From the IMG/VR virus record IMGVR_UViG_3300021420_000044, positions 1 through 54,422 of that record: 54,422 bases of DNA; one strand, written 5' to 3'. The stretch is from a virus (lineage: Duplodnaviria > Caudoviricetes). A program made the position numbers and the translations under genes. Below, piece after piece: positions 11,401 to 23,705 of this stretch. The number at the start of each line of letters is the position of its first letter. Position 1 is the first letter of the stretch. The notes beneath the pieces are model-generated. The model did not search any database and was not told where the DNA came from. It saw only the letters and a list, made by a program, of their open reading frames with translations.

Positions 11401-12641
11401 GGAATAATCACGCCCCCGAAGACGGTCCCCAAATTATAGGTCTGCTGGTTGTACCCTCCGCCAGCCTGAATCTGTCTCGGCCCTGCCACAATCCTGTTCG
11501 CCTTCAAGTTCATCACTTTTGCCGTGAACTCCTTCATCATCCCGGTCGCTTCCTGATACTGCTTCTCAGCCTTGAGGAAACGCGCCTCTAGGTAGGTAAT
11601 CATCGCCTCTTCCCACCCAGGAGCCAGCGTGAACGTAGACGCCGCTGCGCCTACCGAGTAATCCGATGGCACCCTCCAGCCAGAAATCATCAAATTCAAC
11701 TCCGTTACCGCTGTTCCGTCAGGCCACGAAGCCGCAAGCGTACCGCTCATGCCGCGAGTTAAACCTTGCAGCGTTCCGCCTTCGTTGCCCGCAAACTCCA
11801 CAATTTCTGTACCGATTTGCGCTAAGCCAAAGCCGAGAACGAAATTACTTGTCGCCAACAATGCGGACGTGTCGCTAGGGCCTATCGAGCCATTTCCTGA
11901 CAGGGTAGTCTGCCCAGATGTTCGCGACGGTTGCGGCCACAACTCCACAATCAAGCGATCCGACACCTGATTGACGGTCAGCGTCCCTGAAGTGCCCGTA
12001 ACGTTGTTTCGCCTGAACACGTCATTCTTGTTCCCCAGATACAGCGGATAGCCGTCATACCATGCCGTATCAATCTTTTTCCACACTCCGTTCATGGTGT
12101 AAATCGGCTGTTCAACAACCGTTCCCACACCTCCGAAGTCCGGTATCCCGCCACACAGCGTTGACGCTGACTTAAGCCCATCGTTCAGCCAGCGATATAG
12201 CGCCGAAACGCTCACTACCCCACCATCCGAATCGGGCAAATACGCAGTATTTCTGGTCGGCGGAACTTGCGCTACCGCAACGGCAGGGTTGTACGCATAC
12301 GGCAGAGAAGTGAATTCGTTGTACTGATTCTCCTGACCCGCTTGCGTGCCAATGTAAGCTCGCATCTTGGTCGCACCCAAAGGTATCCCGCCAGCAAAGT
12401 TTGCCGTGAACTGTAGCGTTTGATTGAACGCGACAACCAAACTCACCTCAGACGAGGCTATCGTTTCTCCCCACTGATTCAGTGCAGTCAGGACGATGTA
12501 GTAGGTGAATACAGGAAGCGGAGTAGAAGAAGAAACTGCGGCTATGCTGAAATTCGCAGTGACCGGAGGCGCAAGAGTCTGTTGAGGCAGGTCGGTGAAA
12601 AGCTCTCTGGCTCCGAGTAGCACGCTTCCGACAAGTGACAT
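11397..12641 (-). CDS. Head-tail adaptor with inserted beta-domains
   Basis: LYRWLNDG, LIVELWPQP and WEEAMITY..ARFLKAEK motifs typical of podoviral adaptors; position. Confidence 0.6.
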   Translation of the reverse strand: MSLVGSVLLGARELFTDLPQQTLAPPVTANFSIAAVSSSTPLPVFTYYIVLTALNQWGETIASSEVSLVVAFNQTLQFTANFAGGIPLGATKMRAYIGTQAGQENQYNEFTSLPYAYNPAVAVAQVPPTRNTAYLPDSDGGVVSVSALYRWLNDGLKSASTLCGGIPDFGGVGTVVEQPIYTMNGVWKKIDTAWYDGYPLYLGNKNDVFRRNNVTGTSGTLTVNQVSDRLIVELWPQPSRTSGQTTLSGNGSIGPSDTSALLATSNFVLGFGLAQIGTEIVEFAGNEGGTLQGLTRGMSGTLAASWPDGTAVTELNLMISGWRVPSDYSVGAAASTFTLAPGWEEAMITYLEARFLKAEKQYQEATGMMKEFTAKVMNLKANRIVAGPRQIQAGGGYNQQTYNLGTVFGGVIIP

Positions 12642-12656
12642 TGCATACTCCCTCGG

Positions 12657-12944
12657 TTAATCCATCGTAGACGCTGCGATAACGGTAACTGCCGCTTCAA
12701 TAGCAGTCTTGTCGGCAGCAAGCGTTGTCATGTAGACCGACACGGCTCCATTGACGGCAAGATTCGAGATTACGTTGGCAACGTTCGACATGAACGAATC
12801 CACGCCCGTAGGATTGGAGCCAATCGGGTACTCAAAGAACGGGCTGCCCTGAATCGTAATCACGTTCGGCGCAGGAGTGATGTTCGTGCCTTCGTTCTGA
12901 ATCCCGTTCCCAATCACCGTTCCCTTGAATCGAATCGTTGCCAT
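12657..12944 (-). CDS. Small virion structural protein
   Basis: RBS ggaggt; structural-gene context. Confidence 0.6.
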   Translation of the reverse strand: MATIRFKGTVIGNGIQNEGTNITPAPNVITIQGSPFFEYPIGSNPTGVDSFMSNVANVISNLAVNGAVSVYMTTLAADKTAIEAAVTVIAASTMD

Positions 12945-12947
12945 GAC

Positions 12948-13031
12948 CTACCTCCGCTTTGACGACTTGTTGCCCATCTTCGACAGGAAGCGATTAGCTC
13001 TGCCCTTGTACTTCTTGGATGCCTTTTTCAT
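12948..13031 (-). CDS. Basic micro-protein MKKASKKYKGRANRFLSKMGNKSSKRR (27 aa)
   Basis: Manual translation; RBS aggaggga; 12 K/R, no D/E; stop 3 nt before the next ATG. Confidence 0.75.
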   Translation of the reverse strand: MKKASKKYKGRANRFLSKMGNKSSKRR

Positions 13032-13046
13032 CGCTCCCTCCTGTAG

Positions 13047-13074
13047 AAAAGCCGGAAGCACTGGCTCCCGGCTT
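13047..13074 (-). terminator. Intrinsic terminator after the capsid operon
   Basis: AAGCCGGGAGC-cagt-GCTTCCGGCTT followed by TT on the minus strand. Confidence 0.75.
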
Positions 13075-13110
13075 CCTCCACCATGCACGCACACACTTTG
13101 TTACCGAACG

Positions 13111-13494
13111 TCAGGGGCAGCAGCAACATTCCACATCAAATGTCGTTGTGTTGTTGACCACGTTGATTGCCACGTTGATGGAGTTCACGTTCAAGTCCGA
13201 AATCCACTCAATCACTTCGCAGTAGCTCTGACCGTTGGCCGTCTGCGCTGCATCCCCGGCATAGACTTGCTGCGTCGTGGTTCCGTCCGTCACGAGTATG
13301 TTCGTGATTTTTGTGGTCGCGTTCACGCCAATGGCGAGCGTCTGCACACGAATCTTTCCCTTGGTGAACGACGTAGGAAAGGCGTTCAACACCACGTTGG
13401 TCACGCCAGCAGCAACGGAGACGTTCAGGTTTGACACCGTTGTGCCAGAACCCATGCCGGGAAGAATTTGAGCAACTTTATTCACTATCGCCAT
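13111..13494 (-). CDS. Putative capsid decoration protein ending in CCCCP
   Basis: 127 aa, V/N/T-rich all-beta; downstream of MCP; RBS ggaga. Confidence 0.6.
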   Translation of the reverse strand: MAIVNKVAQILPGMGSGTTVSNLNVSVAAGVTNVVLNAFPTSFTKGKIRVQTLAIGVNATTKITNILVTDGTTTQQVYAGDAAQTANGQSYCEVIEWISDLNVNSINVAINVVNNTTTFDVECCCCP

Positions 13495-13504
13495 TTCGAG
13501 TCTC

Positions 13505-14002
13505 CTATGCCCGCCTGACTACGTATTCCTTTTTGAGTTCATGTGCTCGCTTGAACAGTGCTTCACGAATATCCAAAACGTTCGCTGGAGTTTTGTGACC
13601 TCTACCACTGCCGCCGTGACGCGCAATAGTATTCACAAACGCGATAGCAACCTCAGCCTGTTCGCGCTTGATAATCAACCACGGCAGAATGCCAGTCAGA
13701 ATCGCCAGCACCGCCTTACGTCCAGGTGACCACGTATAGTGAACGCGTGGCTGGCCCTGAATGATTCGCGGCTTACGCTCGTGAACTACTCCACCAAACA
13801 CCGATTCGCACCACATCGGCAAGCGAAAATCGTTGTTGCAGATATACAAAGCGCAATGAGACTGAACTTGCTTCTCGCTTCGTGTTCGCGGAGTTTTGTT
13901 AACACGCCTGAAATCCACCGAGATGCACCCCTCCCCATCCACGAAGGCTGCGAGGCGTGCCCAATCAACATCTGGAATCAATTTGTACTCAGCGTTTGTC
14001 AT
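13505..14002 (-). CDS. Free-standing single-motif LAGLIDADG homing endonuclease
   Basis: RLAAFVDGEGCI motif; FGG.V, Y.W and ILPWLIIKREQAE segments. Confidence 0.88.
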   Translation of the reverse strand: MTNAEYKLIPDVDWARLAAFVDGEGCISVDFRRVNKTPRTRSEKQVQSHCALYICNNDFRLPMWCESVFGGVVHERKPRIIQGQPRVHYTWSPGRKAVLAILTGILPWLIIKREQAEVAIAFVNTIARHGGSGRGHKTPANVLDIREALFKRAHELKKEYVVRRA

Positions 14003-14035
14003 CAGCGCATTATACTCATGCTAACTACATAGTTA
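14003..14035 (-). promoter_or_regulatory. Putative leaderless promoter of the endonuclease with an upstream inverted repeat
   Basis: TATAAT (14014-14009) 6 nt before the ATG, no SD; TAACTA-N2-TAGTTA at 14022-14035. Confidence 0.55.
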
Positions 14036-14037
14036 CA

Positions 14038-15036
14038 TTACGCCGTGATATTCGTGAGTTTCACGAGCATACGCGGCGAGATGCAACTGAGCTGAAAAGT
14101 GAGGTACAATGTTGACACCAAAACCCTTTGGTTTGTTGGCTTTATGAATGGGTCAACATTGAAGTAATCGGCCTCATGGAAACACGGAAACACGTATTTA
14201 CTATTTAGGAAATAGGCAGTGTTCGGCTGCGCTGCCTGCTCGAACAAATCCGGTACAACGATGGCGTTGTTGAACAGGAAGTGATTCCTGAATCCAACCT
14301 GCAACGCTTCCTCATCCTGCATTCCCTGACCGAAGCGAATCTCCGTGGTGAATGCGCCTTTGAATCCAGCGTAACGTTGCTGAGAAATTGTCATTAAGTC
14401 AGGCTCGTCGTAACCGAATACGACTGTCTGATACGCAGTCTCAGCGTTGGTCGGAGTCAGCACACCGGAGCCGTTAGAGACGTTCGCTGCTGGCTGCCAG
14501 AAAGCATTCGCGGCTGCTGAGCGGTCGATGCCTGCGATGACGTTCGTTGTCGCTCCAGCCCACGAATCAATGTCGTCAATGTCGTTGGTCGTGTTCTGCG
14601 GCGTGGTGTGCCACAGAGCGCGTGAGAGCTTCGTAAGGAACGATGCTGACGCGACTTGATACTTCGCCTTGATGATGTCGAGATTCCCTGCTCCACCGCG
14701 ATTCAGAATGATGTCGGTAATCGGGATGACGATTGGCTGTCGGTACGGACGCCACTGTTGGTTCGCCGGCTGAATTGAGTCCACCACGGAGGTATCGAGC
14801 AACTGGTCGCCGTAGTACGCGCCCCCTGGGAGTTCTTCCTGATTGATTTCAGGGAAGATTAACTCGCCAGCTCCAAACTTCTTGCCTTCACGAGTCAGTG
14901 CCCAGAACACAGGCGATGGCTTGAATACGTTGTCACCGAGGACCGGGACAATGTATTTCTGAGAAATTGCGTTGACCGTATTCGAGAGCTGAACCGGAGG
15001 AGTTGCGAGTCCGAGTCCAACTACGCTGTTAGCCAT
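14038..15036 (-). CDS. Major capsid protein
   Basis: 332 aa; strong RBS aaaggag; after the scaffold; LGDNVFKPSP, IAGIDRS...FWQP and EPDLMTIS motifs typical of HK97-fold podoviral MCPs. Confidence 0.85.
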   Translation of the reverse strand: MANSVVGLGLATPPVQLSNTVNAISQKYIVPVLGDNVFKPSPVFWALTREGKKFGAGELIFPEINQEELPGGAYYGDQLLDTSVVDSIQPANQQWRPYRQPIVIPITDIILNRGGAGNLDIIKAKYQVASASFLTKLSRALWHTTPQNTTNDIDDIDSWAGATTNVIAGIDRSAAANAFWQPAANVSNGSGVLTPTNAETAYQTVVFGYDEPDLMTISQQRYAGFKGAFTTEIRFGQGMQDEEALQVGFRNHFLFNNAIVVPDLFEQAAQPNTAYFLNSKYVFPCFHEADYFNVDPFIKPTNQRVLVSTLYLTFQLSCISPRMLVKLTNITA

Positions 15037-15051
15037 TGTGTGCTCCTTTTG

Positions 15052-15912
15052 CTAGTTCGAGGCGCGACCCGCCATAATCCCAGACCACAATTCCGTGTCG
15101 TTGGCCGCATCCTGCAATACTTGGTCGAAAGACTTGGTTCGTCCCTTATCGTCCTTGAACGACTTCGGCGTAGCTCCGCGAGGTCCAGGAGAGTTGCTTC
15201 CCGGCTTCGGCAACGAGGATGCGAACTGCTCATCTTCCAGTTCCTTCTTGAGCTTGATACGCTCTGCTTCCCGCCACTCATCCTGCCGGTATTCGGAGGT
15301 CATGTCCTCTGCCGCCTTGCGAAGATTCAGCCGGCCTTTCGAGTCCTTCAAGCCTTCCTTTTCCGCGTGCTTCATCACGTCTTCGAGCTTGATTTTGTCC
15401 TTCGCCTTCGCTGGAAGTTTCGGCTCGATTTTGTCTGACCACTGGTCGCCGTACCAGTCATCGAGGTAGGTTCCGAGCATGGGCTTGAGAATCTTTTCCT
15501 TGGCTTCGGAGAGTTGTCCTTCAAGCGTGCCGACTTTGGCCTTCAGCGCATTGAATTCCTTCACCATCGGAGCCAGCAATGGGTCGTCTGGGTCGAGGCC
15601 GGTGTCTTCCGCGACTTGGCGTTTGGTAATCTTCGGAGCCTTTCCTGCCAGCGCTTCCTCTGCGGTCAGGCCAGTCAAGGTAAGGTACTTGTTGAACATT
15701 TCGTAGACGCCATTCGAGGCGGTTTCGAGTTGCTGCTTCTCTTTGGCGAGAGCTTTCTCTTTCGCGGTCAACTGCTCAGTGAGAGCGCCTTTGGTTTCTT
15801 TGTCGTAGGCGCGCGCTTCTCCGAGTTTTAACGTTTGACCATCTTTCGTGGTGATTACAACATCATCAGGAAACGCAGTAACGTCAGCCAAAATCTCTTT
15901 CCAAGAAAGCAT
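15052..15912 (-). CDS. Capsid scaffolding protein
   Basis: Charged coiled-coil protein with a P/G-rich linker and short C-terminal helix; directly before MCP. Confidence 0.7.
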   Translation of the reverse strand: MLSWKEILADVTAFPDDVVITTKDGQTLKLGEARAYDKETKGALTEQLTAKEKALAKEKQQLETASNGVYEMFNKYLTLTGLTAEEALAGKAPKITKRQVAEDTGLDPDDPLLAPMVKEFNALKAKVGTLEGQLSEAKEKILKPMLGTYLDDWYGDQWSDKIEPKLPAKAKDKIKLEDVMKHAEKEGLKDSKGRLNLRKAAEDMTSEYRQDEWREAERIKLKKELEDEQFASSLPKPGSNSPGPRGATPKSFKDDKGRTKSFDQVLQDAANDTELWSGIMAGRASN

Positions 15913-16310
15913 TAGATGGCTCCTGACTGTGGCTCACCGCCTCCGGGATTCTGTGTCGGATTCGGCATGGCGGCGTTGTTAGCAATAGGTGGACGTACAG
16001 ACGCTTGCGTGGCTGCGCCCTGCTCCAGAGCCTTAATCATCGCGTCCAGCGACTTTTGAGCAGAGGCTGCATGGCGTGACGCTTCGGGAATCGAGAACGC
16101 AGTTCGCACGTAAATCTGGACTAGCATCTGCTTCAACTGCTTGGCCGACTTCAGTAGCAAATTCGGGTCAGCGCCTTGGAGTTCGGAGAACTGAGAGGCT
16201 AATTGGCTGTCAGCGGCTTCCGGCGCTGCTCCACCTTGGCCCTGAGCGAGCCTCTGCACAAGCTGGCGAGCCATCGAGGACTGCATGATTGGATTGGCCG
16301 CGCCTGCCAC
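15912..16310 (-). CDS. Head-module hypothetical protein (Q/A/P-rich)
   Basis: GTG start coupled to the upstream TAG; stop overlaps the scaffold ATG. Confidence 0.6.
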   Translation of the reverse strand: MAGAANPIMQSSMARQLVQRLAQGQGGAAPEAADSQLASQFSELQGADPNLLLKSAKQLKQMLVQIYVRTAFSIPEASRHAASAQKSLDAMIKALEQGAATQASVRPPIANNAAMPNPTQNPGGGEPQSGAI

Positions 16311-16450
16311 TATCGGCCTCCACCACGATTGCCGCGCTTCGGAAGGCGCTTTACGCGATGCGGAGCATGACGCTTCACCATGCGCTCTTTGAACGGGAAT
16401 GTCGTAGGTCGCAAATGATTCTTGCCGCCACGATTGTGCTTGTTAGCCAT
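16310..16450 (-). CDS. Basic micro-protein MANKHNRGGKNHLRPTTFPFKERMVKRHAPHRVKRLPKRGNRGGGR (46 aa)
   Basis: Manual translation; RBS ggaggg; 15 K/R; TAGTG coupling to the next gene. Confidence 0.75.
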   Translation of the reverse strand: MANKHNRGGKNHLRPTTFPFKERMVKRHAPHRVKRLPKRGNRGGGR

Positions 16451-16459
16451 ACGCCCTCC

Positions 16460-16639
16460 CTAGTCGTTGCCCAACTTGCCCATCTTCTTCGAGTTGGATG
16501 GGATGAACTTCAACGGGTCGTCAGGGGCCATTACCGGGCTGTTATTTACGGCCGGTCCAGGTTCTTTCTTCGGCCTCGCAACTGTCAGCGGACTCTTCAA
16601 AATCTTGTCATCGAAAGCGGTGCCCATCTTATTCGGCAT
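16460..16639 (-). CDS. Small K/P-rich protein MPNKMGTAFDDKILKSPL... (59 aa)
   Basis: Manual translation; RBS aggaga; fills the gap between neighbours. Confidence 0.7.
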   Translation of the reverse strand: MPNKMGTAFDDKILKSPLTVARPKKEPGPAVNNSPVMAPDDPLKFIPSNSKKMGKLGND

Positions 16640-16669
16640 GGTGTGACTCTCCTAAGAGTGCAGGATGAA

Positions 16670-16695
16670 CAGGAGCAGCCCGGAAGCCGCTCCTG
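16670..16695 (-). other. GC-rich stem-loop (weak terminator or mRNA-stabilising hairpin)
   Basis: CAGGAGCGGC-ttccgg-GCTGCTCCTG, only TT after it. Confidence 0.55.
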
Positions 16696-16709
16696 CCTTG
16701 CGGAATCCG

Positions 16710-16763
16710 CTAATAGCGCCGTGACATACGCCGTCTACGACGACGCCCTCCACGGTGTGCCAT
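16710..16763 (-). CDS. Protamine-like peptide MAHRGGRRRRRRMSRRY (17 aa)
   Basis: Manual translation; RBS aaggaggg 4 nt before the ATG; 9 Arg on mixed codons (CGT/AGA/CGG/CGC). Confidence 0.7.
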   Translation of the reverse strand: MAHRGGRRRRRRMSRRY

Positions 16764-16844
16764 GATGCCCTCCTTCGCTATCGGCGTTGATGAGACGTGA
16801 GCGATGGCGCGAAGGCCAGCAACTTTCGCTCACACTACGGCAAG

Positions 16845-16895
16845 TTATTTTCTCTTGCCGCCCTTGTGATGCTTACGACCTCGCTTGCGGGCCAT
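16845..16895 (-). CDS. Basic peptide MARKRGRKHHKGGKRK (16 aa)
   Basis: Manual translation; RBS aggaggt; TGATG coupling to the upstream stop; 9 K/R. Confidence 0.7.
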   Translation of the reverse strand: MARKRGRKHHKGGKRK

Positions 16896-17125
16896 CAGGC
16901 TACCTCCTCTGTTAGGCGTTGTGACCTTACATCGCCGTAAGTCTCAAGCAGTGAACTTGCCTGCCGTTCGAGCATTTGGAAGTACGATTCGTCGTCTCTG
17001 TACCGCTCGCGGTCGCTGCGATGCACTTGAAACGGTACACACAGCTTTCCGTCTACCGCACAGCGAATCGTAATCCAGCCGTCTCGGGGTTCAGGATGCT
17101 CAAGAAGCTCGAAACTACGGCTCAC
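16895..17125 (-). CDS. Hypothetical protein (76 aa)
   Basis: ORF track; preceded by a promoter-like element. Confidence 0.6.
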   Translation of the reverse strand: MSRSFELLEHPEPRDGWITIRCAVDGKLCVPFQVHRSDRERYRDDESYFQMLERQASSLLETYGDVRSQRLTEEVA

Positions 17126-17161
17126 GTTTGGAGATTGCAGGTTTGGTGCGGAGAAAGTAAA
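17126..17161 (-). promoter_or_regulatory. Putative promoter for the head-gene transcript (leaderless)
   Basis: TTTACT-N18-CAATCT-N6-GTG. Confidence 0.4.
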
Positions 17162-17195
17162 TAGGGTAGTTGCAATTTTCGCGAAGATGCGAAAG

Positions 17196-17405
17196 TTAAT
17201 AGCGGAGTTTTTTCATAGTGTAAGCAGTGACTTGTATCCAGATTCTCCCACCGATTTCCCTACGAGTCTGAATCGAGAATGCGTGCAGCGTACCATCGGA
17301 TACCCATTCATACACAGTGCGCAGCGGACGATTGACTAACGCAGAGAATTCCTTCACGGATAACCACTGCGGGGCACTTTCAGTGTTGATGGGCTGAGTG
17401 CTCAT
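17196..17405 (-). CDS. Xis/MerR-like winged-HTH DNA-binding protein
   Basis: WLSVKEFSALVNRPLRTVYEWVSDG...GGRIWI. Confidence 0.7.
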   Translation of the reverse strand: MSTQPINTESAPQWLSVKEFSALVNRPLRTVYEWVSDGTLHAFSIQTRREIGGRIWIQVTAYTMKKLRY

Positions 17406-19090
17406 TTTTTGTTCCCCTTCGTCTTCGCCAGAGCTGCCAGTTCCATCTCGCGCTCTATGCGGTCTGCTACCCCTCCAGCATCCGGGAAGTCCAAATGCTC
17501 TAGGCCAGTTCGCGTATCCATCATGCCGAGTTTCTTGAGTTCCGGCACCATGCGCTTAATCATCATCTGCGACATTGGACGCAGGCTGGCGTCGTCCAGT
17601 TCGACATCGTAAATGTCGTGGCGGCTCAGCAGTCCCGGCCACTTCACGATTTCCCGTCCTGACTCGCCATCGTACTGAACTGCCTGCTCGCGCATGAATT
17701 TCCCAATGAGGTGAAACTGCGTCCAAGCAATGCGGTAAAACGCTTCCGCATGAAGTCGTCCACGAAGCTGAGTTAGACCTTGCGAGCGAATCACCGACTC
17801 ATCAAATAGTTCAGGAGAAATGTTTCCTGCTCCTGGCTTGCCAGAACGAGCGTCAGTGAAGCCTTGCAATTCTTTTTGCTTGTCGAGTAGTAGTTGCGGA
17901 TACTGCGAGAATTGTTGTGGGAAAGGAGGAGGAGCGAGAATCTTTACACCATCAATCGTGTTGGCGTTGACTACCTGGACTTCTCCCGGCATCCCGCCAT
18001 AGGCGTCAGGGTCGATTCCCGTTCGTTCGTCAATAAGTGTAATCCCGTTGTTGATGCGGATAGCATTCTCGAAAAGCTGTGTCCAGAGTCGTTCAGAAAC
18101 GTTCTGAATATCGCGGGAATACCTAACGGCAGGGACCGCCCAGATACCATGCAAGGGAACGGTTGACCAGAACGGGACAATGGGGAAACTTTTGAGAGGA
18201 TAGGGATTATCACCATCTTGGAGTATCTGCCCTTCGCAGTCAACAATGAGCCGGTTGTTAGGATACCGCCACTCAAAGTCCGCAGGAACTATAGCGCCTT
18301 CTGGGAGCTTCTTTTCCTCGATTTTCAGCCGCGTGGAGTCTTCGCAAAAGCACCACCTTACCCGCACTCGATTGTCGTTTGGTATGGACCGATTATTCGG
18401 TAACCCAGGAACCATCGACATTGGCCCTTGCGGCATCTGGAATCCATAGCCGGAATCTCCAATAGCGGGGCTAACACTTCGTCCTGCCACTCTTGGCTTG
18501 ACTCCGGCAGAAGTCTTGGGCCAGCGTTTCCGTACCCGGTCCAGGTGCATGTAATCTTCGAGGATGACATAAGACCAATCCAGCTCATACGACGTAAACG
18601 GGTCGCAGTCAAACGTCCGTGGGTCCCTCATTTTAGCCCACGTGCCACCTCTCCCGCTTCTCATGTCAGGGTCATAGCCAATCTGAATCGGCGTCATCCC
18701 GGTAAACATCGAGGAGAGAATGGCGAACATCGAGTGATAGTTAATCTTCGACCGTCGCCACTCCGATTGCAGGACTTTTTCGCGTTCTTCTTCGCGCTTC
18801 GAGGATTGCGTGTTGATGATGTAAGGGCGAGGCGCGACTTCCGTTAAATCGTTGGCCTCGCGCATCATCAAGGTTTGGAGTTCAGGAGTGCGAATCAGCG
18901 GACGGAATGAAGGCAGTGGCCCACCGGAATCGGTTAGCGCGTAGAATGCTTCCATGTCCTCGTACCAGCGTTCCCCGAGGACTTGATTTTTGTGGTCTTT
19001 GGAAAGTCTTTGCCACTCTGAAATGTGGGATGACAGTGGGTTTTCTGTCTCCACAGACTTGCGAGATGTAACGACATGCAGGTTAGCCAT
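17402..19090 (-). CDS. Portal protein
   Basis: 562 aa between TerL and scaffold; DPRTFDCDP, FPIVPF and RDIQ..E motifs of P22/podoviral-type portals. Confidence 0.85.
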   Translation of the reverse strand: MANLHVVTSRKSVETENPLSSHISEWQRLSKDHKNQVLGERWYEDMEAFYALTDSGGPLPSFRPLIRTPELQTLMMREANDLTEVAPRPYIINTQSSKREEEREKVLQSEWRRSKINYHSMFAILSSMFTGMTPIQIGYDPDMRSGRGGTWAKMRDPRTFDCDPFTSYELDWSYVILEDYMHLDRVRKRWPKTSAGVKPRVAGRSVSPAIGDSGYGFQMPQGPMSMVPGLPNNRSIPNDNRVRVRWCFCEDSTRLKIEEKKLPEGAIVPADFEWRYPNNRLIVDCEGQILQDGDNPYPLKSFPIVPFWSTVPLHGIWAVPAVRYSRDIQNVSERLWTQLFENAIRINNGITLIDERTGIDPDAYGGMPGEVQVVNANTIDGVKILAPPPFPQQFSQYPQLLLDKQKELQGFTDARSGKPGAGNISPELFDESVIRSQGLTQLRGRLHAEAFYRIAWTQFHLIGKFMREQAVQYDGESGREIVKWPGLLSRHDIYDVELDDASLRPMSQMMIKRMVPELKKLGMMDTRTGLEHLDFPDAGGVADRIEREMELAALAKTKGNKK

Positions 19091-19230
19091 TACTTCCGCT
19101 TTCGCGTCTTGCGCCTATCCTTGCCGATGCCCAACCGTGTTCCCTTGCGTACGGGCCGCTTCTGCTCACGGCGAGACATTTCCTCTTCGGGCCTACCGTA
19201 GTCAGAGCATGGAATCGGCGTCGGATTCAT
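19090..19230 (-). CDS. Basic micro-protein MNPTPIPCSDYGRPEEEMSRREQKRPVRKGTRLGIGKDRRKTRKRK (46 aa)
   Basis: Manual translation; RBS aggag; TAATG coupling to the portal; 16 K/R. Confidence 0.75.
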   Translation of the reverse strand: MNPTPIPCSDYGRPEEEMSRREQKRPVRKGTRLGIGKDRRKTRKRK

Positions 19231-19412
19231 AGCACTCCTGCAATCGACAGGCAATCAGGCGCGCAACTGCAACATTCATCGCACATGCAACACACATTAC
19301 ACCACTGATAAATCGGCCACATCTCCTCACATACTGAACACATCAAGCGCCTCTGCGACCATAGGCCAACGGTGCTTTCCCATCGACAGTCGTACCCGCT
19401 AGGGCTAGACAT
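19227..19412 (-). CDS. Cys-rich small protein (11 Cys in 61 aa)
   Basis: CSVC...CNVCCMCDECCSC; coupled on both sides. Confidence 0.6.
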   Translation of the reverse strand: MSSPSGYDCRWESTVGLWSQRRLMCSVCEEMWPIYQWCNVCCMCDECCSCAPDCLSIAGVL

Positions 19413-19480
19413 TACTGCCGCTTCCGATTGCGCATGTAGCGGCTCAGCACCTTGCCCTTGCCCGACTTGCCGCTAGGCAT
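19412..19480 (-). CDS. Basic peptide MPSGKSGKGKVLSRYMRNRKRQ (22 aa)
   Basis: Manual translation; purine-rich aaggggaag upstream; TAATG coupling; 8 K/R, no D/E. Confidence 0.6.
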   Translation of the reverse strand: MPSGKSGKGKVLSRYMRNRKRQ

Positions 19481-20015
19481 CTTCCCCTTGTGGGAGAAGT
19501 TCTTCCTTGGATTTCTCATTTGTTGGCTCCGCGTTCAACCATTGTGAGAAGGCATCGGCCATCGTCATCTTGCCTTCGTCCCCGCCCTCTTTCAGATGCG
19601 ATTGCAACTCTTTCACTCGCTCATCGAGTTCCTTCGCAGTATAGATGCCGCCATCGACTAGCGTGCGCTGATGTTTTCTGAGTTCCAAAAGAAAGTAGCG
19701 GTAGGACTTTGAGGCAGATTCTTCGTCGTAGATTCGGGCAAACTCGTTGCCGATTTTCTCGTACAGCGTAAGCGCTTTGTTGCGGACGCTCAGCGCCTTT
19801 CGGTTCTGAACGGATACAGCCCGGACTCCACTCTCTGTTTGCGCTCCGTCTCCGTTCTCTGCTTTTTCTGACGCTGTTCCCGCTCCTGCTCCATCAGGTA
19901 AAGACGTAGGTTGTCTTCGGTCGATACTCGGGCTGGCGGGATTTCCTGTGGCTCCTCGGTTGGCGTACTCAACGGCGGCTGCGACTTTCGCGGAGAAGTT
20001 TTCGGAGCTGCCCAT
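19473..20015 (-). CDS. Hypothetical protein (true start uncertain)
   Basis: ORF track; C-terminal ~100 aa look like real helical protein; 5' part overlaps 19790..20251. Confidence 0.5.
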   Translation of the reverse strand: MGSSENFSAKVAAAVEYANRGATGNPASPSIDRRQPTSLPDGAGAGTASEKAENGDGAQTESGVRAVSVQNRKALSVRNKALTLYEKIGNEFARIYDEESASKSYRYFLLELRKHQRTLVDGGIYTAKELDERVKELQSHLKEGGDEGKMTMADAFSQWLNAEPTNEKSKEELLPQGEDA

Positions 20016-20251
20016 GCAGGAGGCTCGCTAACTACATAAAGGTCTGTGGTTCTTGGACCTAAACGTAGCACAACTTCCGTCAGACTGTCATTAGGAAACC
20101 GCGTCAGAACTTGGTCGGTGACCGCGAGAATATCGTTTACCTTAATGCGAATCTCCCCGCCCTGCTTCTTCACAATGGCCGCAAGCAAGTTCAGCAGATA
20201 GCGGTCTGGTGCCATGCCGGCACTCGAAAGGGGGTACGGAAGTTCATTCAT
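19790..20251 (-). CDS. Hypothetical protein
   Basis: ORF track; same-strand operon. Confidence 0.55.
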   Translation of the reverse strand: MNELPYPLSSAGMAPDRYLLNLLAAIVKKQGGEIRIKVNDILAVTDQVLTRFPNDSLTEVVLRLGPRTTDLYVVSEPPAWAAPKTSPRKSQPPLSTPTEEPQEIPPARVSTEDNLRLYLMEQEREQRQKKQRTETERKQRVESGLYPFRTERR

Positions 20252-20477
20252 TTTCGCACGGGCAATCTAGTCCGACTGCCCAATAATGCGTGCAGCAGAA
20301 ATAGTTTCCAGTAGTATAAAAATGAAATCTTGGCAGTTTCACTGGCACCCCTCGGCCCAGAGAGTCATATACCATCAGAGAGCCTTGCGGAAAGTGAGCG
20401 CACATACCAGCAGTGTTCTGCTTGCCGCAGGAGCAGAGAAGCATTTCGTATTTCCTGCCGTCCGCCGTGCTCACCAT
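20244..20477 (-). CDS. Cys/His-rich small protein
   Basis: CSCG, CAH, CCTH, CPC. Confidence 0.5.
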   Translation of the reverse strand: MVSTADGRKYEMLLCSCGKQNTAGMCAHFPQGSLMVYDSLGRGVPVKLPRFHFYTTGNYFCCTHYWAVGLDCPCENE

Positions 20478-20478
20478 G

Positions 20479-20673
20479 CTACGCCGGCTTGTCGATGACA
20501 GCCTTTAACGCGACTTTCAAGTCCGCCGCTTTCTTTGTGGCCGCTGTGGCTACCTGCTGCGCTCCAGCGAGCGTTTGCTGTGCCACGGTTACCGCATGTT
20601 GGGCCTTTTCCAGTTCGTCCAAGGCTATCTGGTAGTTATTGGAAGCATCGCGTAGGTCTTCGCTGTTGCTCAT
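20479..20673 (-). CDS. Small coiled-coil protein
   Basis: RBS ggaggga; A/Q-rich heptads. Confidence 0.6.
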   Translation of the reverse strand: MSNSEDLRDASNNYQIALDELEKAQHAVTVAQQTLAGAQQVATAATKKAADLKVALKAVIDKPA

Positions 20674-20921: not shown

Positions 20922-23705
20922 TTACACTCCGTCAATTAAGGACTTCTTTTTCGCTTTCTCGTTGTAAATCCGCAGCTTGTTCAGATGATTTGTGCTCGTC
21001 CACCCAAACAAGCCAAACGCATTCGTCTCTGGACTCTCCATCCACTGCACCCCTTGATGATTCTCTTTGTCCTCCGTCAGCTTTTGCGACATGCGGTCTT
21101 CGTGAGAGCCATGCGGATAGTGATGGTCCTGCATTGCGGCCCAACCGAGCAGACCAGCCATCATCAAATCGTCGTGGCCCTTCACTACTGTCCAGCGCCA
21201 ACCCATTTCCATTTTGCACTTGGACATCTGCGTGACTAATTCTTGGTCGTGCGGGAAACATTCTTTCCGCCGTAATGAAGTTCTAAATAATGCGAGAGCG
21301 CGCTGTCGGCTTCGTTCTGTTGTTTCCCATCCGAGAGAAGTACGCGGCTTTTTATCAAAACGGTCGTCGCGGCCAAGCCATAAATATTGCCCGGGATAAT
21401 GCCATCGATCGCGGAGTTCTCGCAGCACAATGTATCCCCATCCTCCGGTGATTTCAACATTGACCATCGCCTTTCCGTACATTCTTCCAATGTAATTAAC
21501 AATACTGCCGAGAATTTCTGGTCCAACGTGAGCCGCATAACTGAACGCTTGGTCACCAGTCTCCGCATTCCAGCCAACCATCGCAGAAAAATCTCCCGAC
21601 TCCAGACCCTTGCTCGCGTCCACGCCCACGTATACATGCTCGCCTTCTTTCGGCCACTCAAATATTTTCAGCGGACCTTCTCTTGCCTCTTCAAATTCCA
21701 GTGACCAATCAGTCGAGAGCGGGACCATACGCATGTGCGTAATCGGTTCTCTTATGTGGTCCTGCGCCATCTTCATTTCCTGGAAGTCGAAGGCTGGATT
21801 TCCGGTGCTAATAAATGCTTCATCTGGCGTGTTGTGAGAGGCGATTCCATTCGCACCGAAGACGTGTTCTTTGTGGTCTATCGAGAGGTCGTACACTGGA
21901 TGGAGGCCAATGTTCGTTACCTGCACCACAGTGTCTTCAAACGTAATTTGCTGGAATCGGCGTGAAAGCGGGACCACTTTACGGTGCCTGTTTTTCTTTC
22001 GTTCGCTCAGGAATCCAATCTGCTCGTTGAACTCCACTGACTCCCGCAGGCGCAGATTAATATTGTTGTCCATGTAGTGATACCCACGGTCATTCACTAC
22101 TGGTCGGCTCGAAATTTTGGCTGTAATACCGAATCCCAGAAGCAGCAATTGGATTTGCTCAAGGAACTCGATGTGTTTAGAAAATAACTTTATTCGGTTG
22201 TCCTTGTAAGCATTGAAGCCATCCGCCTCGAACAGCCCAGACAGAAACTCTTTGACGATGTGCTTCGGAGACTTCCAGATGCAATCTGGCACACAGACCC
22301 TTCTGTGCGGTTTGTCTTTATGATAAATACCGAGTTTCTTCATCAGGTGACGAAAGTAGACACTGCCGACACGGACCTCCGTACACCCTTTGTTTGGTCC
22401 AGTTTGCCTCTGAGTTGAGTTCCCAAATAATTTTCGTTGATATGCCGCGACCCACTCCACCAAATCCACGTCTTGCCCGAAGCACGCAATAGACACGATG
22501 CCATCCGTGTAGCAACCGTCGCCCATGAACACGCCGAGAAAGCGTGCAAAGTCTGGCGTAATTTCTATTTCTGACTTAACATCGCATGGCTCGTTCCACC
22601 TGACAGTCAGTGGCGTATCAGCAAAGCGCGGCGGTAGCAGGCGGAGTTTTTTATTCAGTGTCTTTTCTAGATGTATAAACGTGCCGTCCGCCAATTGCAC
22701 AGGATGATCCAATGTGCCTCGAAGAACTCGGCCTTGCTCAGTTCTTATTTCGCAGCACTCCTTGAAGCCAGTCATCCCGCATGACGTGACTGTACCCAAT
22801 TCGGAAATGTCTCCTGGCACAGCATCGCGTATTTTCACGATTCCACGATTCGTACCAACCAGGGTATCGGCCAAAAGGCACGCGGGATACTCGGCTCTCC
22901 ACGTATAAATTGACCCGCCGCATTTCGTCTCCAACGTCTGACGATGCCACGCAATCTGTCCTTTCGTAACCTTGAACTCGGCACAAAGCCACTTCTCGTA
23001 GTCATCTGCGGGAGCGTCTGGGGCGAGTGAATCTGGGAGAAACGAACCTGGGTCTTCGTACCAGGGAAGAAAAATTGGCATGAAGTCGTTTTGCCCGTCT
23101 ACGGCGGCATTCCAATAATCGTAATAAGCCTCCCCTGGCCCCTCCATCCCATTCGCCGTCGTCTCAATCGCCACAATGTTGTCTGGGTCTTTCGATGAGA
23201 CGGTGTTGAGTAGCGCGATAAACGAATCCGCCCCTGGGTAGAATGCCGCCTCTGTGAGATGAAGTCCGTTGAGCGTCAATCCGCGTCCGCTAATAACAGT
23301 TTTGGCTGTAGCTCTGCGAAGCGTGGACACTCCTCCAGAGTGAGGGAAATAAATCTCACGCTGCGTATGCGGCGGCAATGTGAACGGCAAGCACAACGAA
23401 AACTCTGTTACTTGCGTGAACAGTTCTTTTGCCGTCTCTCCTAGCTGCGCGACAATCATTCCTTTGCAGTTCCGCTTCTGCAACTGCTGCGCCATCAGCA
23501 GAGAGAGCACCCACGTAGACACCCCGAGCCGGCGACTTTTCAGGAACACGGCCCACAGAGGCTTCTTCTGTTCCTGCCGTTGGCGCACCATTCGCATTAT
23601 CTTTTCTTGGGATGGGTTAAAGCGAAACGGTTTTTGCGCGCCGGTATCGCGGTCCTTGATAGTCAGTCGATTACACAAAGCCGCAAAATGGTCGAGGTTC
23701 AGCAT
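20922..23705 (-). CDS. terL: Terminase large subunit containing an intein
   Basis: LKSRRLGVST (Walker A), LHLTEAAF (Walker B variant), IETTANG (coupling motif), YVGVDASKG and HDDLMMA (RNase H nuclease). Confidence 0.95.
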   Translation of the reverse strand: MLNLDHFAALCNRLTIKDRDTGAQKPFRFNPSQEKIMRMVRQRQEQKKPLWAVFLKSRRLGVSTWVLSLLMAQQLQKRNCKGMIVAQLGETAKELFTQVTEFSLCLPFTLPPHTQREIYFPHSGGVSTLRRATAKTVISGRGLTLNGLHLTEAAFYPGADSFIALLNTVSSKDPDNIVAIETTANGMEGPGEAYYDYWNAAVDGQNDFMPIFLPWYEDPGSFLPDSLAPDAPADDYEKWLCAEFKVTKGQIAWHRQTLETKCGGSIYTWRAEYPACLLADTLVGTNRGIVKIRDAVPGDISELGTVTSCGMTGFKECCEIRTEQGRVLRGTLDHPVQLADGTFIHLEKTLNKKLRLLPPRFADTPLTVRWNEPCDVKSEIEITPDFARFLGVFMGDGCYTDGIVSIACFGQDVDLVEWVAAYQRKLFGNSTQRQTGPNKGCTEVRVGSVYFRHLMKKLGIYHKDKPHRRVCVPDCIWKSPKHIVKEFLSGLFEADGFNAYKDNRIKLFSKHIEFLEQIQLLLLGFGITAKISSRPVVNDRGYHYMDNNINLRLRESVEFNEQIGFLSERKKNRHRKVVPLSRRFQQITFEDTVVQVTNIGLHPVYDLSIDHKEHVFGANGIASHNTPDEAFISTGNPAFDFQEMKMAQDHIREPITHMRMVPLSTDWSLEFEEAREGPLKIFEWPKEGEHVYVGVDASKGLESGDFSAMVGWNAETGDQAFSYAAHVGPEILGSIVNYIGRMYGKAMVNVEITGGWGYIVLRELRDRWHYPGQYLWLGRDDRFDKKPRTSLGWETTERSRQRALALFRTSLRRKECFPHDQELVTQMSKCKMEMGWRWTVVKGHDDLMMAGLLGWAAMQDHHYPHGSHEDRMSQKLTEDKENHQGVQWMESPETNAFGLFGWTSTNHLNKLRIYNEKAKKKSLIDGV
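21831..22880 (-). mobile_element. Intein with LAGLIDADG endonuclease (350 aa)
   Basis: EYPA|CLLADTLV...VYDLSI..HVFGANGIASHN|TPDEAF; TLDHPV block B; LGVFMGDG and LSGLFEADG motifs. Confidence 0.95.

What the first reader, a model, noticed from the sequence alone, without database searches (positions are those of the whole stretch)
12948..19480. Six unannotated protamine/histone-tail-like micro-genes interleaved with head genes
Seen: 19412-19480 (22 aa, 8 K/R), 19090-19230 (46 aa, 16 K/R), 16845-16895 (MARKRGRKHHKGGKRK), 16710-16763 (MAHRGGRRRRRRMSRRY), 16310-16450 (46 aa, 15 K/R) and 12948-13031 (27 aa, 12 K/R). All are on the coding strand, most have textbook SD sequences, and several overlap neighbouring start/stop codons. 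All fall below the 60-aa ORF cutoff. Established: short Arg-rich DNA-condensing proteins occur in eukaryotic viruses (adenovirus mu/VII, baculovirus P6.9), whereas tailed phages mostly rely on polyamines and cations. Inference: this is a phage-encoded peptide system for DNA charge neutralisation or condensation during packaging, or a condensate-forming system.
Basis: partly seen in the sequence, partly recalled or inferred. Interest (0 to 1): 0.82.

Follow-up and report, generated by a model that had tools for sequence, protein, structure and literature searches.

The report
Conserved polybasic micro-genes in phage heads
Six tiny, very positively charged genes among the head-building genes of an uncultured soil phage are real and conserved in dozens of related phages, and they may give the virus its own DNA-neutralising peptides, though this function is untested.

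Summary
All six small ORFs lie on the minus (coding) strand as described. The first is probably 35 aa (19412-19519), not 22.

They are not chance. In 57 related phage lineages, gaps between head genes hold 116 SD+ATG micro-ORFs with at least 30% K+R on the coding strand, against 2 on the opposite strand. All 57 lineages have at least one between the portal gene and the 132-aa gene.

Each window ORF has homologues at the same position, with family motifs. Substitutions fit the reading frame: pN/pS is 0.36-0.63 in frame and at least 1.07 out of frame; dN/dS is 0.21-0.29 for the two smallest.

Pfam, PHROGs, PDB and Rfam give no match. One soil metatranscriptome holds the b3-b4 stretch as its deepest contig in this region.

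b4 is also constrained at the nucleotide level and sits among conserved hairpins, so a regulatory role is a live rival for it.

Function is untested. My best guess (about 0.4) is late-made, disordered polycations that bind nucleic acid, most likely co-packaged DNA counter-ions. T4 internal proteins and microvirus protein J are precedents.

The parts
19412..19519 (-). b1: 35-aa polybasic micro-gene (K+R 13, net +12.6).
   Evidence: ORF. Homologues lie between terL and portal in 13 of 57 lineages and share a G-[RK]-S-G-K-G-x-V core and a basic C-terminus. pN/pS is 0.42 in frame and 1.38 in shifted frames.
19090..19230 (-). b2: 46-aa small protein just upstream of the portal gene and coupled to it. 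It has a conserved N-terminal half and, in this lineage, a polybasic C-terminal tail.
   Evidence: Eight positional homologues were aligned, with 13 invariant columns. A profile search found 46 clusters among 5.8 billion proteins, all 46-78 aa, none named, none with Pfam. pN/pS is 0.36 in frame and 1.58 shifted.
16845..16895 (-). b3: 16-aa micro-gene (K+R 9, H 2). The family starts M-A-R-[RK] and ends K-R-K.
   Evidence: Sequence. Family members occur in 49 of 57 lineages. All lie between portal and the 59-aa or 132-aa gene, except one fragment in L004. Of 54 members, 50 have an SD core and 38 start MA. dN/dS is 0.21 at dS 0.84 over 46 pairs.
16710..16763 (-). b4: 17-aa Arg-rich micro-gene (9 R). 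The family starts M-A-x-R-G-G-R-R.
   Evidence: Found in 28 of 57 lineages; 25 of 28 have AGGAGG and 27 of 28 start MA. dN/dS is 0.29, but dS is only 0.21, so synonymous sites are constrained. The ORF lies in a nucleotide-conserved block whose SD/start region is predicted to pair with the ORF's 3' end.
16669..16696 (-). 12-bp RNA hairpin 14 nt after the b4 stop (16685-16696 pairs with 16669-16680).
   Evidence: The 261-nt stretch 16640-16900 folds with z = -3.0. At the same position, relatives have a hairpin with variable sequence in which 9 of 9 pairs keep pairing through changes on both sides in at least 2 sequences. No canonical U-tract terminator was found.
16310..16450 (-). b5: 46-aa polybasic micro-gene (K+R 15, H 4, net +13.8), coupled to the 132-aa gene.
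   Evidence: A basic ORF of 30-62 aa fills the gap between the 59-aa and 132-aa genes in the nearer relatives. More distant ones have no gap (3-47 nt) and no such gene. The profile finds 13 proteins in 1.84 billion, 12 of them 36-54 aa. pN/pS is 0.63 in frame and 1.07 shifted.
12948..13031 (-). b6: 27-aa polybasic micro-gene (K+R 12) between the 127-aa and 95-aa genes, downstream of the capsid gene.
   Evidence: The family regex hits 8 of 57 lineages, the window included, all between the capsid gene and the 414-aa gene. One search adds a 26-aa homologue in L004. pN/pS is 0.49 in frame and 1.07 shifted.
16642..17113 (.). Stretch covering the 76-aa gene, b3, b4 and the hairpin. It stands as one 472-nt contig with 0 differences in a soil metatranscriptome library.
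   Evidence: run X2, record 9. Its depth is 15.5. The other X2 contigs identical to this region have depth 2-5, and none lies over the portal gene. These are contigs only; strand and DNA carry-over are not resolved.

Best explanation
The six ORFs are genuine, translated micro-genes of a complete 54.4-kb uncultured soil phage genome whose head module looks like that of a podovirus.

They encode intrinsically disordered polycations of 16-46 aa, with net charge +8 to +14 and almost no acidic or hydrophobic residues. They are made together with portal, scaffold-like and capsid proteins from strong ribosome-binding sites, and several are translationally coupled to neighbours.

Shown: the ORFs, their signals, their conservation as families across the clade, substitution patterns that fit the frame, and presence of the b3-b4 stretch in an RNA library.

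Inferred: the peptides bind nucleic acid electrostatically. Most likely they enter or accompany the DNA in the capsid as phage-supplied counter-ions, lowering DNA-DNA repulsion during and after motor-driven packaging. This would be analogous to microvirus protein J, T4 internal proteins and adenovirus mu/VII.

Selection acts mainly on charge, length and a few short motifs. That would explain why even close relatives diverge fast while staying basic.
For: Reality and conservation:
- 116 of 235 coding-strand gap micro-ORFs are basic, against 2 of 78 on the opposite strand, in 57 lineages.
- 57 of 57 lineages have at least one basic micro-ORF (mean 2.6) between the portal end and the start of the 132-aa gene.
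- Family motifs stay at fixed positions in gene order.
- dN/dS is 0.21 for b3 and 0.29 for b4. In-frame pN/pS is 0.36-0.63, against 1.07-1.58 in shifted frames, for b1, b2, b5 and b6.
- An independent MAG contig carries the same set.

Expression:
- SD cores are present.
- Second codons are often Ala: 38 of 54 b3 members and 27 of 28 b4 members.
- An RNA-library contig at 16642-17113 is the deepest in the region.

Link to the head:
- In the window, all basic gap micro-ORFs lie in 12948-19519 and none lies elsewhere in the 54 kb.

Composition-type constraint:
- The portal is 93% identical between the window and L001, yet b5 is only 58% identical, and both stay at 33% K+R.

Precedents:
- T4 internal proteins contact DNA phosphates (PMC3012670, passages).
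- The short R-rich J and H proteins of Microviridae carry most of the capsid charge (PMC7096446, passages).
Against: - There are no virion, proteomic or binding data of any kind.
- One copy of each peptide gives about +65 charges against 108,844 phosphates (2 x 54,422). Hundreds of copies of each would be needed for even 10% neutralisation.
- No capsid-targeting signal, hydrophobic anchor or prohead protease was recognised.
- The families are patchy outside the portal-to-132-aa slot: 19 of 49 lineages upstream of portal and 9 of 49 after the capsid gene.
- The nearest cultured relative, Mx8 (26% capsid identity), has none by the same criteria. This capsid type therefore does not need them.
- Relatives of b2 are only about 20% K+R and carry an acidic motif.
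- b4 shows synonymous-site constraint and predicted SD-sequestering pairing, which suggests regulation.
- The RNA evidence comes from assembled contigs of one library. It shows neither strand nor translation.
Confidence: 0.4

Rival explanations
1. Arginine-rich-motif type RNA binders. The peptides, above all b4 and b3, bind structured RNA in the same late transcript, such as the adjacent hairpins. They would tune mRNA stability, processing, read-through or translation of the scaffold and capsid genes, and would not be packaged.
For: b4 is an R-G-G plus poly-Arg peptide of 17-20 aa. It lies between conserved RNA structures. One is a hairpin right after its stop that keeps pairing through changes on both sides. 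In 21 lineages a further sequence-conserved structured element follows. The window stretch 16640-16900 folds with z = -3.0. RNA-contig depth drops from 15.5 to 2.3 just past the hairpin.
Against: Similar polycations also occur upstream of portal and after the capsid gene, where no such conserved structures were looked for or seen. Hairpins persist in lineages that lack b4, for example L002. Co-occurrence of the b4 variant with the RNA element may simply reflect shared ancestry. No binding data exist.
Confidence: 0.2
2. Protein-level assembly factors. The polycations act on acidic head proteins (capsid interior, scaffold-like protein, portal) rather than on DNA, for example to help scaffold release, portal incorporation or head completion. 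T7 gp6.7 and gp7.3 (recalled, not checked here) are small basic proteins encoded just upstream of the T7 portal gene.
For: The genes sit among head genes and are coupled to the portal gene and the 132-aa gene. The capsid, scaffold-like and 76-aa proteins are acidic, with net charge -7.2, -4.4 and -4.3. b2 has conserved non-basic motifs, which suit a specific protein contact.
Against: Peptides of 11-17 aa made almost only of K, R, H and G offer little surface for specific protein recognition. The acidity of the head proteins is ordinary. No interaction test was run.
Confidence: 0.2
3. Regulatory upstream ORFs (leader peptides). Translation of b3 and b4 as such matters, not the peptide. It would control formation of downstream RNA structures or sense Arg/Lys-tRNA supply, and so set the ratio of portal-operon to scaffold/capsid expression.
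For: In b4, 9 of 17 codons are Arg. It is followed 14 nt later by a 12-bp hairpin. Its synonymous sites are nearly frozen across 15-20 lineages. Its SD and start are predicted to pair with its own 3' end. The exact 21-base RBS/start signature recurs once per contig in 53 viral contigs. RNA depth breaks after the hairpin.
Against: No U-tract terminator was found on the coding strand. The pairs of the SD stem are invariant, so they give no covariation support. b3 has dS 0.84 with dN/dS 0.21, which means the peptide sequence itself is under selection. b1, b2, b5 and b6 are 27-46 aa with amino-acid motifs and are not followed by such structures.
Confidence: 0.15
4. Chance ORFs in purine-rich intergenic spacers, with no gene product.
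For: They are very short, low in complexity, and have no database family.
Against: Strand asymmetry is 116 against 2. Position and motifs are conserved across capsid identities of 54-90%. Substitution patterns are frame-specific. SD plus ATG is present in nearly all members.
Confidence: 0.03

Closest known systems
Microviridae DNA-binding protein J (phiX174 and relatives)
   Same: It is a stand-alone phage gene for a peptide under 40 aa that is very rich in R and K. The peptide accompanies the genome into a preformed capsid and supplies much of the internal positive charge (PMC7096446, passages read).
   Different: It belongs to ssDNA T=1 phages whose packaging is coupled to DNA synthesis, not to a terminase motor. 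It is a single gene, not five or more families. No sequence relation was found: Pfam gave nothing at E up to 10 for b1, b2 and b5, and one sub-threshold unrelated hit for b6. Virion presence is not known here.
T4 internal proteins IPI, IPII, IPIII
   Same: This is a tailed-phage precedent. About 1000 molecules are embedded in the packaged DNA, their lysines contact phosphates, and they share charge balancing with polyamines and cations (PMC3012670, passages read).
   Different: The T4 proteins are much larger folded proteins. They carry an N-terminal capsid-targeting sequence and enter via the scaffolding core, and some act as anti-restriction proteins (same passages). Here the products are 16-46 aa, no targeting sequence or protease was recognised, and there is no homology.
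Adenovirus VII/mu and baculovirus P6.9 (protamine-like core proteins)
   Same: They are small Arg-rich proteins that condense dsDNA inside a virion (abstracts listed: PMC10548178, PMC5899202).
   Different: They belong to eukaryotic viruses with a different assembly route. There is no sequence relation. No condensation has been shown here.
Arginine-rich-motif RNA-binding peptides (lambda N, HIV Tat/Rev type; recalled, not checked by a call)
   Same: They have 10-20 residues dominated by Arg and act next to RNA hairpins. b4 has this composition and this neighbourhood.
   Different: The known examples are parts of larger proteins that recruit other factors. b4 is the whole product. Binding has not been tested.
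T7 gp6.7 and gp7.3 (recalled, not checked by a call)
   Same: They are small basic virion-associated proteins encoded just upstream of the portal gene of a podovirus, as b1 and b2 are here.
   Different: They are roughly twice to five times longer. No similarity was found: the PHROG scan of b1 (22-aa form), b2, b5 and b6 found no family.

Membership tests
Protein-coding gene (general test) | The open frame is kept at the same position in diverged relatives, with start codon and ribosome-binding site. | tested here: met
   For example, b3 occurs in 49 of 57 lineages and b4 in 28 of 57. SD cores precede 50 of 54 b3 members and 28 of 28 b4 members.
Protein-coding gene (general test) | Substitutions are concentrated at synonymous sites of the proposed frame. 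| tested here: met
   dN/dS is 0.21 for b3 and 0.29 for b4; in-frame pN/pS is 0.36-0.63, against 1.07-1.58 in shifted frames. Caveat: the alignments were made at protein level and pS is near saturation.
Protein-coding gene (general test) | Translation is observed. | not testable with these tools
   The only data are contigs from an RNA library that cover 16642-17113. No ribosome profiling or proteomics was available.
Microviridae protein J | Sequence match to the family model. | tested here: not met
   The Pfam scan at E up to 10 found no family for b1, b2 and b5, and only a sub-threshold DUF3826 hit for b6. b3 and b4 are below the tool's 20-aa minimum.
Microviridae protein J | Present in the virion and bound to the packaged genome. 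| not testable with these tools
   No cultured member of the clade and no proteome are available.
T4-type internal proteins | N-terminal capsid-targeting sequence removed by a prohead protease. | tested here: inconclusive
   No protease family was recognised among the head-module proteins scanned. The scan was not exhaustive, and a targeting motif cannot be defined here.
Protamine-like viral core proteins (adenovirus VII/mu, P6.9) | Homology to the family, or Arg-dominated composition with DNA condensation shown. | tested here: not met
   No Pfam match. The composition is mixed K/R/H except in b4. Condensation is not testable here.
Arginine-rich-motif RNA binder | Arg-rich segment of 10-20 aa. 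| tested here: met
   b4 has 9 R in 17 aa and the family keeps R-G-G-R-R plus an Arg run.
Arginine-rich-motif RNA binder | Specific binding to a defined RNA hairpin. | not testable with these tools
   Hairpins lie next to it and keep their pairing through changes on both sides. Binding cannot be computed here.
Leader-peptide transcription attenuator | Short ORF with a run of the sensed codon upstream of a terminator hairpin with a U tract. | tested here: not met
   The codon run and the hairpin are present. The terminator-pattern scan found no site on the coding strand. In relatives, the sequence after the hairpin is not U-rich.
Known RNA family (Rfam) | Covariance-model match over the b3-b4 region or the conserved element in relatives. 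| tested here: not met
   Window 12000-20500 gave 0 matches at E up to 1. L046 3700-4250 gave only two chance-level hits at E of 2 or more.

The most novel reading that the evidence does not exclude
A clade of soil podovirus-like tailed phages encodes its own set of protamine-like micro-peptides: five or more families, some only 11-19 aa. The peptides are made in bulk with the head proteins and co-packaged with the dsDNA as counter-ions. This would make dense motor-driven packaging independent of host polyamines and cations. Expression of at least one peptide (b4) would be self-limited by an RNA structure that sequesters its own ribosome-binding site. It would be the first peptide-based DNA charge-neutralisation system in Caudoviricetes, and its members would be among the smallest conserved phage genes.
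Probability: 0.3. Interest if true: 0.85.

Novelty: new variant of a known kind. Interest (0 to 1): 0.68.

Why it matters
Genome packaging in tailed phages is usually described as a motor working against DNA self-repulsion, which host polyamines and metal ions screen. Phage-encoded screening is known only from the larger T4 internal proteins.

A conserved, multi-family set of 11-46-aa polycations inside the head module would point to a different, genetically encoded solution. It would be directly testable with synthetic peptides and packaging assays.

Independently of function, the result shows that genes far below usual gene-calling cut-offs (11-19 codons) can be among the most conserved features of a phage clade: 49 of 57 lineages for one family. 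Standard annotation therefore misses part of the structural module. The same locus also offers a compact case of a micro-ORF nested in conserved RNA structure.

Tried and rejected
- DNA similarity to 50,697 phage records: no match.
- PHROGs, Pfam, PDB sequence search and the ESM Atlas gave nothing usable for the micro-proteins.
- Rfam found nothing over the window region or over the relatives' element. ARAGORN found no tRNA or tmRNA.
- The b1 alignment was below the 40-aa minimum of the search for homologous proteins, so b1's wider distribution was not searched.
- Idea rejected: b5 is a split-off N-terminus of the 132-aa protein. In relatives without b5, the longer versions of that protein carry a Pro/Gly-rich internal insertion, not a basic N-terminus.
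- Idea rejected: the micro-ORFs join neighbouring genes by stop read-through. At the overlaps the neighbours are in other frames (sequence).
- My regex for b2 was too strict (1 of 57). The phmmer hits and the alignment replace it.
- The first DNA pattern, with fixed spacing, found only 2 contigs. It was replaced by a variable gap, which found 53.
- Parts of the region without RNA-contig cover in run X2, and the small-share DNA run X3, are not used as evidence.
- Charge of the head proteins gave no obvious acidic partner.
- No structure or complex prediction was run. The peptides are expected to be disordered, and I make no protein-binding claim.
- Supplementary files of papers were not consulted.

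Full report
CONTEXT
The window is a whole virus record of 54,422 bases, rated 100% complete. Nearly all long ORFs are on the minus strand.

The finding lies in the head module. In transcription order the genes are:
- large terminase, 20922-23705 (PHROG terminase; it carries a LAGLIDADG domain);
- a 180-aa gene;
- portal, 17402-19090;
- a 69-aa HTH protein;
- a 76-aa gene;
- a conserved 59-aa gene, 16460-16639;
- a 132-aa gene;
- a 286-aa gene in the scaffold position;
- major capsid protein, 14038-15036 (PHROG major head protein, E 2e-22);
- a gene like an HNH endonuclease;
- genes of 127, 95, 414 and 866 aa.

The nearest cultured phages are Myxococcus phages Mx8 and Mx9, at about 25% capsid identity. 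There is no DNA-level match to 50,697 phage records.

OBSERVATION
All six ORFs exist on the coding strand. Net charges at pH 7 are +7.5 to +13.8, and pI is 11.2 for b2 and 12.0 for the rest.

Junctions with neighbours are tight. One-base stop/start overlaps occur at 16895, 16310 and 19090, and an ATGA overlap at 19227-19230.

One correction: homologues align from the upstream ATG. The first ORF is therefore most likely 19412-19519, 35 aa.

IS IT MORE THAN CHANCE?
Window-wide, 13 SD+ATG ORFs of 10-69 aa lie in gaps between long minus-strand ORFs. Five have K+R of at least 0.30, all within 12948-19230. b1 was excluded by my overlap filter.

A capsid-protein scan of IMG/VR returned 80 related loci at 54-90% capsid identity. 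Adding the window gives 81 loci. I dropped 6 that lack a complete capsid ORF (L061, L069, L076, L080, L081, L082). The remaining 75 collapsed into 57 lineages by near-identical capsid DNA. L001-L003 duplicate other loci and were left out.

In one representative per lineage, gaps between long coding-strand ORFs hold 235 SD+ATG micro-ORFs of 10-65 aa. Of these, 116 have K+R of at least 0.30, and 54 of 57 representatives have at least one. The opposite strand of the same gaps holds 78 such ORFs, of which 2 are basic.

By slot, without masking long ORFs:
- portal end to start of the 132-aa gene: 57 of 57 lineages have at least one (mean 2.6);
- 650 nt upstream of portal: 19 of 49 lineages;
- capsid gene to the 414-aa gene: 9 of 49 lineages.

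The Mx8 head region has none by the same criteria.

FAMILIES
Regex-defined families keep fixed positions in gene order:
- b3 type (M-A-R-[RK] ... K-R-K, 9-20 aa): 49 of 57 lineages, between portal and the 59-aa or 132-aa gene (one fragment elsewhere in L004).
- b4 type (M-A-x-R-G-G-R-R, 16-25 aa): 28 of 57.
- b1 type (G-R-S-G-K-G-R-V core): 13 of 57, all between terminase and portal.
- b5: two subtypes, in 9 and 4 lineages, plus the window, L004, L005 and others seen by eye. All lie between the 59-aa and 132-aa genes.
- b6 type: 8 of 57, all after the capsid gene.
- b2 has 8 aligned homologues with 13 invariant columns. In relatives it is only about 20% K+R. The polybasic tail is specific to the window lineage and to L004.

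Relatives carry further basic families that the window lacks, in 23, 14, 12 and 9 lineages. A MAG contig from another collection has the same set.

SELECTION
Nei-Gojobori estimates on pairs of equal length:
- b3: dN/dS 0.21 at dS 0.84;
- b4: 0.29 at dS 0.21;
- the extra families: 0.14-0.38, all but one (dS 0.58) at dS of about 1 or more.

Codon alignments give in-frame and shifted-frame pN/pS of 0.42/1.38 for b1, 0.36/1.58 for b2, 0.63/1.07 for b5 and 0.49/1.07 for b6. Caveats: the alignments were guided by protein sequence and pS is near saturation.

Divergence is fast, but the basic character is kept. The portal is 93% identical between the window and L001, while b5 is 58% identical.

DATABASE STANDING
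- The b5 profile finds 13 proteins in 1.84 billion representatives. Twelve are 36-54 aa; one is a 654-aa protein with a low-complexity match.
- The b2 profile finds 46 clusters in 5.8 billion proteins. All are 46-78 aa and either unnamed or 'hypothetical', and none has Pfam.
- Pfam, PHROGs, PDB and the Atlas gave nothing.

LITERATURE
Four full-text searches found no description of polybasic micro-peptides in head modules of tailed phages. I read passages of three papers:
- PMC11323111, a review of phage small proteins: the terms basic, arginine, capsid and packag do not occur in it.
- PMC7096446: phages that package with a motor cluster apart from viruses with positively charged capsid domains. 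Microviridae use the short R-rich proteins J and H.
- PMC3012670: T4 internal proteins and charge balance.

These searches cover only the held library, and supplements were not seen.

RNA LAYER
The b4 ORF of about 20 lineages lies in a block that is almost invariant in nucleotide sequence. RNAalifold pairs its SD and start with the 3' end of the ORF. All of these pairs are invariant, so they give no covariation evidence.

Directly after the stop comes a hairpin in which 9 of 9 pairs keep pairing through changes on both sides in at least 2 sequences. A further conserved structured element follows, and the window lacks it.

In the window, the bases just 5' of the b4 SD pair with the end of the ORF. 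A 12-bp hairpin follows at 16669-16696. The stretch 16640-16900 folds with z = -3.0. The pattern scan found no canonical terminator on the coding strand.

The exact 21-base b4 RBS/start signature occurs once in each of 53 IMG/VR contigs.

EXPRESSION HINT
One soil metatranscriptome library (coded X2) holds contigs identical to the window:
- 16642-17113 at depth 15.5, covering the 76-aa gene, b3, b4 and the hairpin;
- 16472-16662 at depth 2.3;
- pieces of the capsid gene and the 132-aa gene at depth 2-5;
- none over the portal gene.

These are contigs of one library. Strand, transcript ends and DNA carry-over are not resolved. The uneven depth argues weakly for RNA.

MECHANISM
The six are real coding micro-genes (about 0.9).

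What they do is inferred. The charge, the lack of hydrophobic residues, the strong translation signals and the restriction to the head module fit nucleic-acid-binding polycations made late. I judge co-packaged counter-ions the most likely single role (about 0.4).

The main weaknesses are the absence of any virion data, the many copies that would be needed (about +65 per set against 108,844 phosphates), the patchy distribution of four of the families, and the regulatory signature around b4.

The rivals, with their tests, are in the fields above: RNA-binding ARM-like peptides, protein-level assembly factors, and regulatory upstream ORFs for b3 and b4.

HOST
The only hit in 185,579 species genomes is a 5.8-kb contig of a MAG labelled uncultured Terracidiphilus. 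This is a weak lead from binning, not a host assignment.

Noticed in passing
window 20922-23705 (-): The large terminase is 927 aa, against 587 aa in relative L002. It carries a LAGLIDADG_3 domain at residues 485-543, which suggests an intein or homing-endonuclease insertion.
   Followed up: partly
window 13505-14002 (-); L018 3847-4338; L060 5999-6430; L005 4807-5274: A 165-aa gene like an HNH endonuclease (PHROG 5046) sits between the capsid gene and the 127-aa gene. Homologues occupy different intergenic slots of the head module in relatives, as a mobile homing-endonuclease gene would.
   Followed up: partly
window 19227-19412 (-) and 13111-13494 (-): A 61-aa Cys-rich ORF is wedged between b1 and b2, with 1-4 base overlaps on both sides. 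It has no homologue in the 80 related loci; in L002, b1 abuts b2 directly. The 127-aa protein of the window ends in four Cys plus Pro, unlike its relatives.
   Followed up: no
L046 3918-4030 and the same place in about 20 other lineages (alignment A1, columns 170-250): A sequence-conserved, structured RNA-like element of about 75 nt lies downstream of b4 and upstream of another basic micro-ORF family. It is absent from the window and has no Rfam match.
   Followed up: partly
relatives, e.g. L046 3610-3738, 4080-4175, 935-1075, 1081-1266: Four further conserved small basic protein families occur in 23, 14, 12 and 9 of 57 lineages, near the portal gene, and the window lacks them. Several have a structured-looking N-terminal part and a polybasic C-terminal tail.
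   Followed up: partly
L048 6185-6415: A tandem array of about six 37-nt repeats fills the slot between the 59-aa and 132-aa genes, where nearer relatives carry b5.
   Followed up: no
L085 (MAG contig): The only relative in the species-genome collection is a 5.8-kb contig binned with an uncultured Terracidiphilus (Acidobacteriota) MAG. This is a weak host lead.
   Followed up: no
window 16460-16639 (-): A 59-aa protein (pI 9.7) has a strongly conserved core and was found in 68 of the loci searched. It has no family in Pfam or PHROGs. It is part of the same cluster of small genes but is not polybasic.
   Followed up: partly
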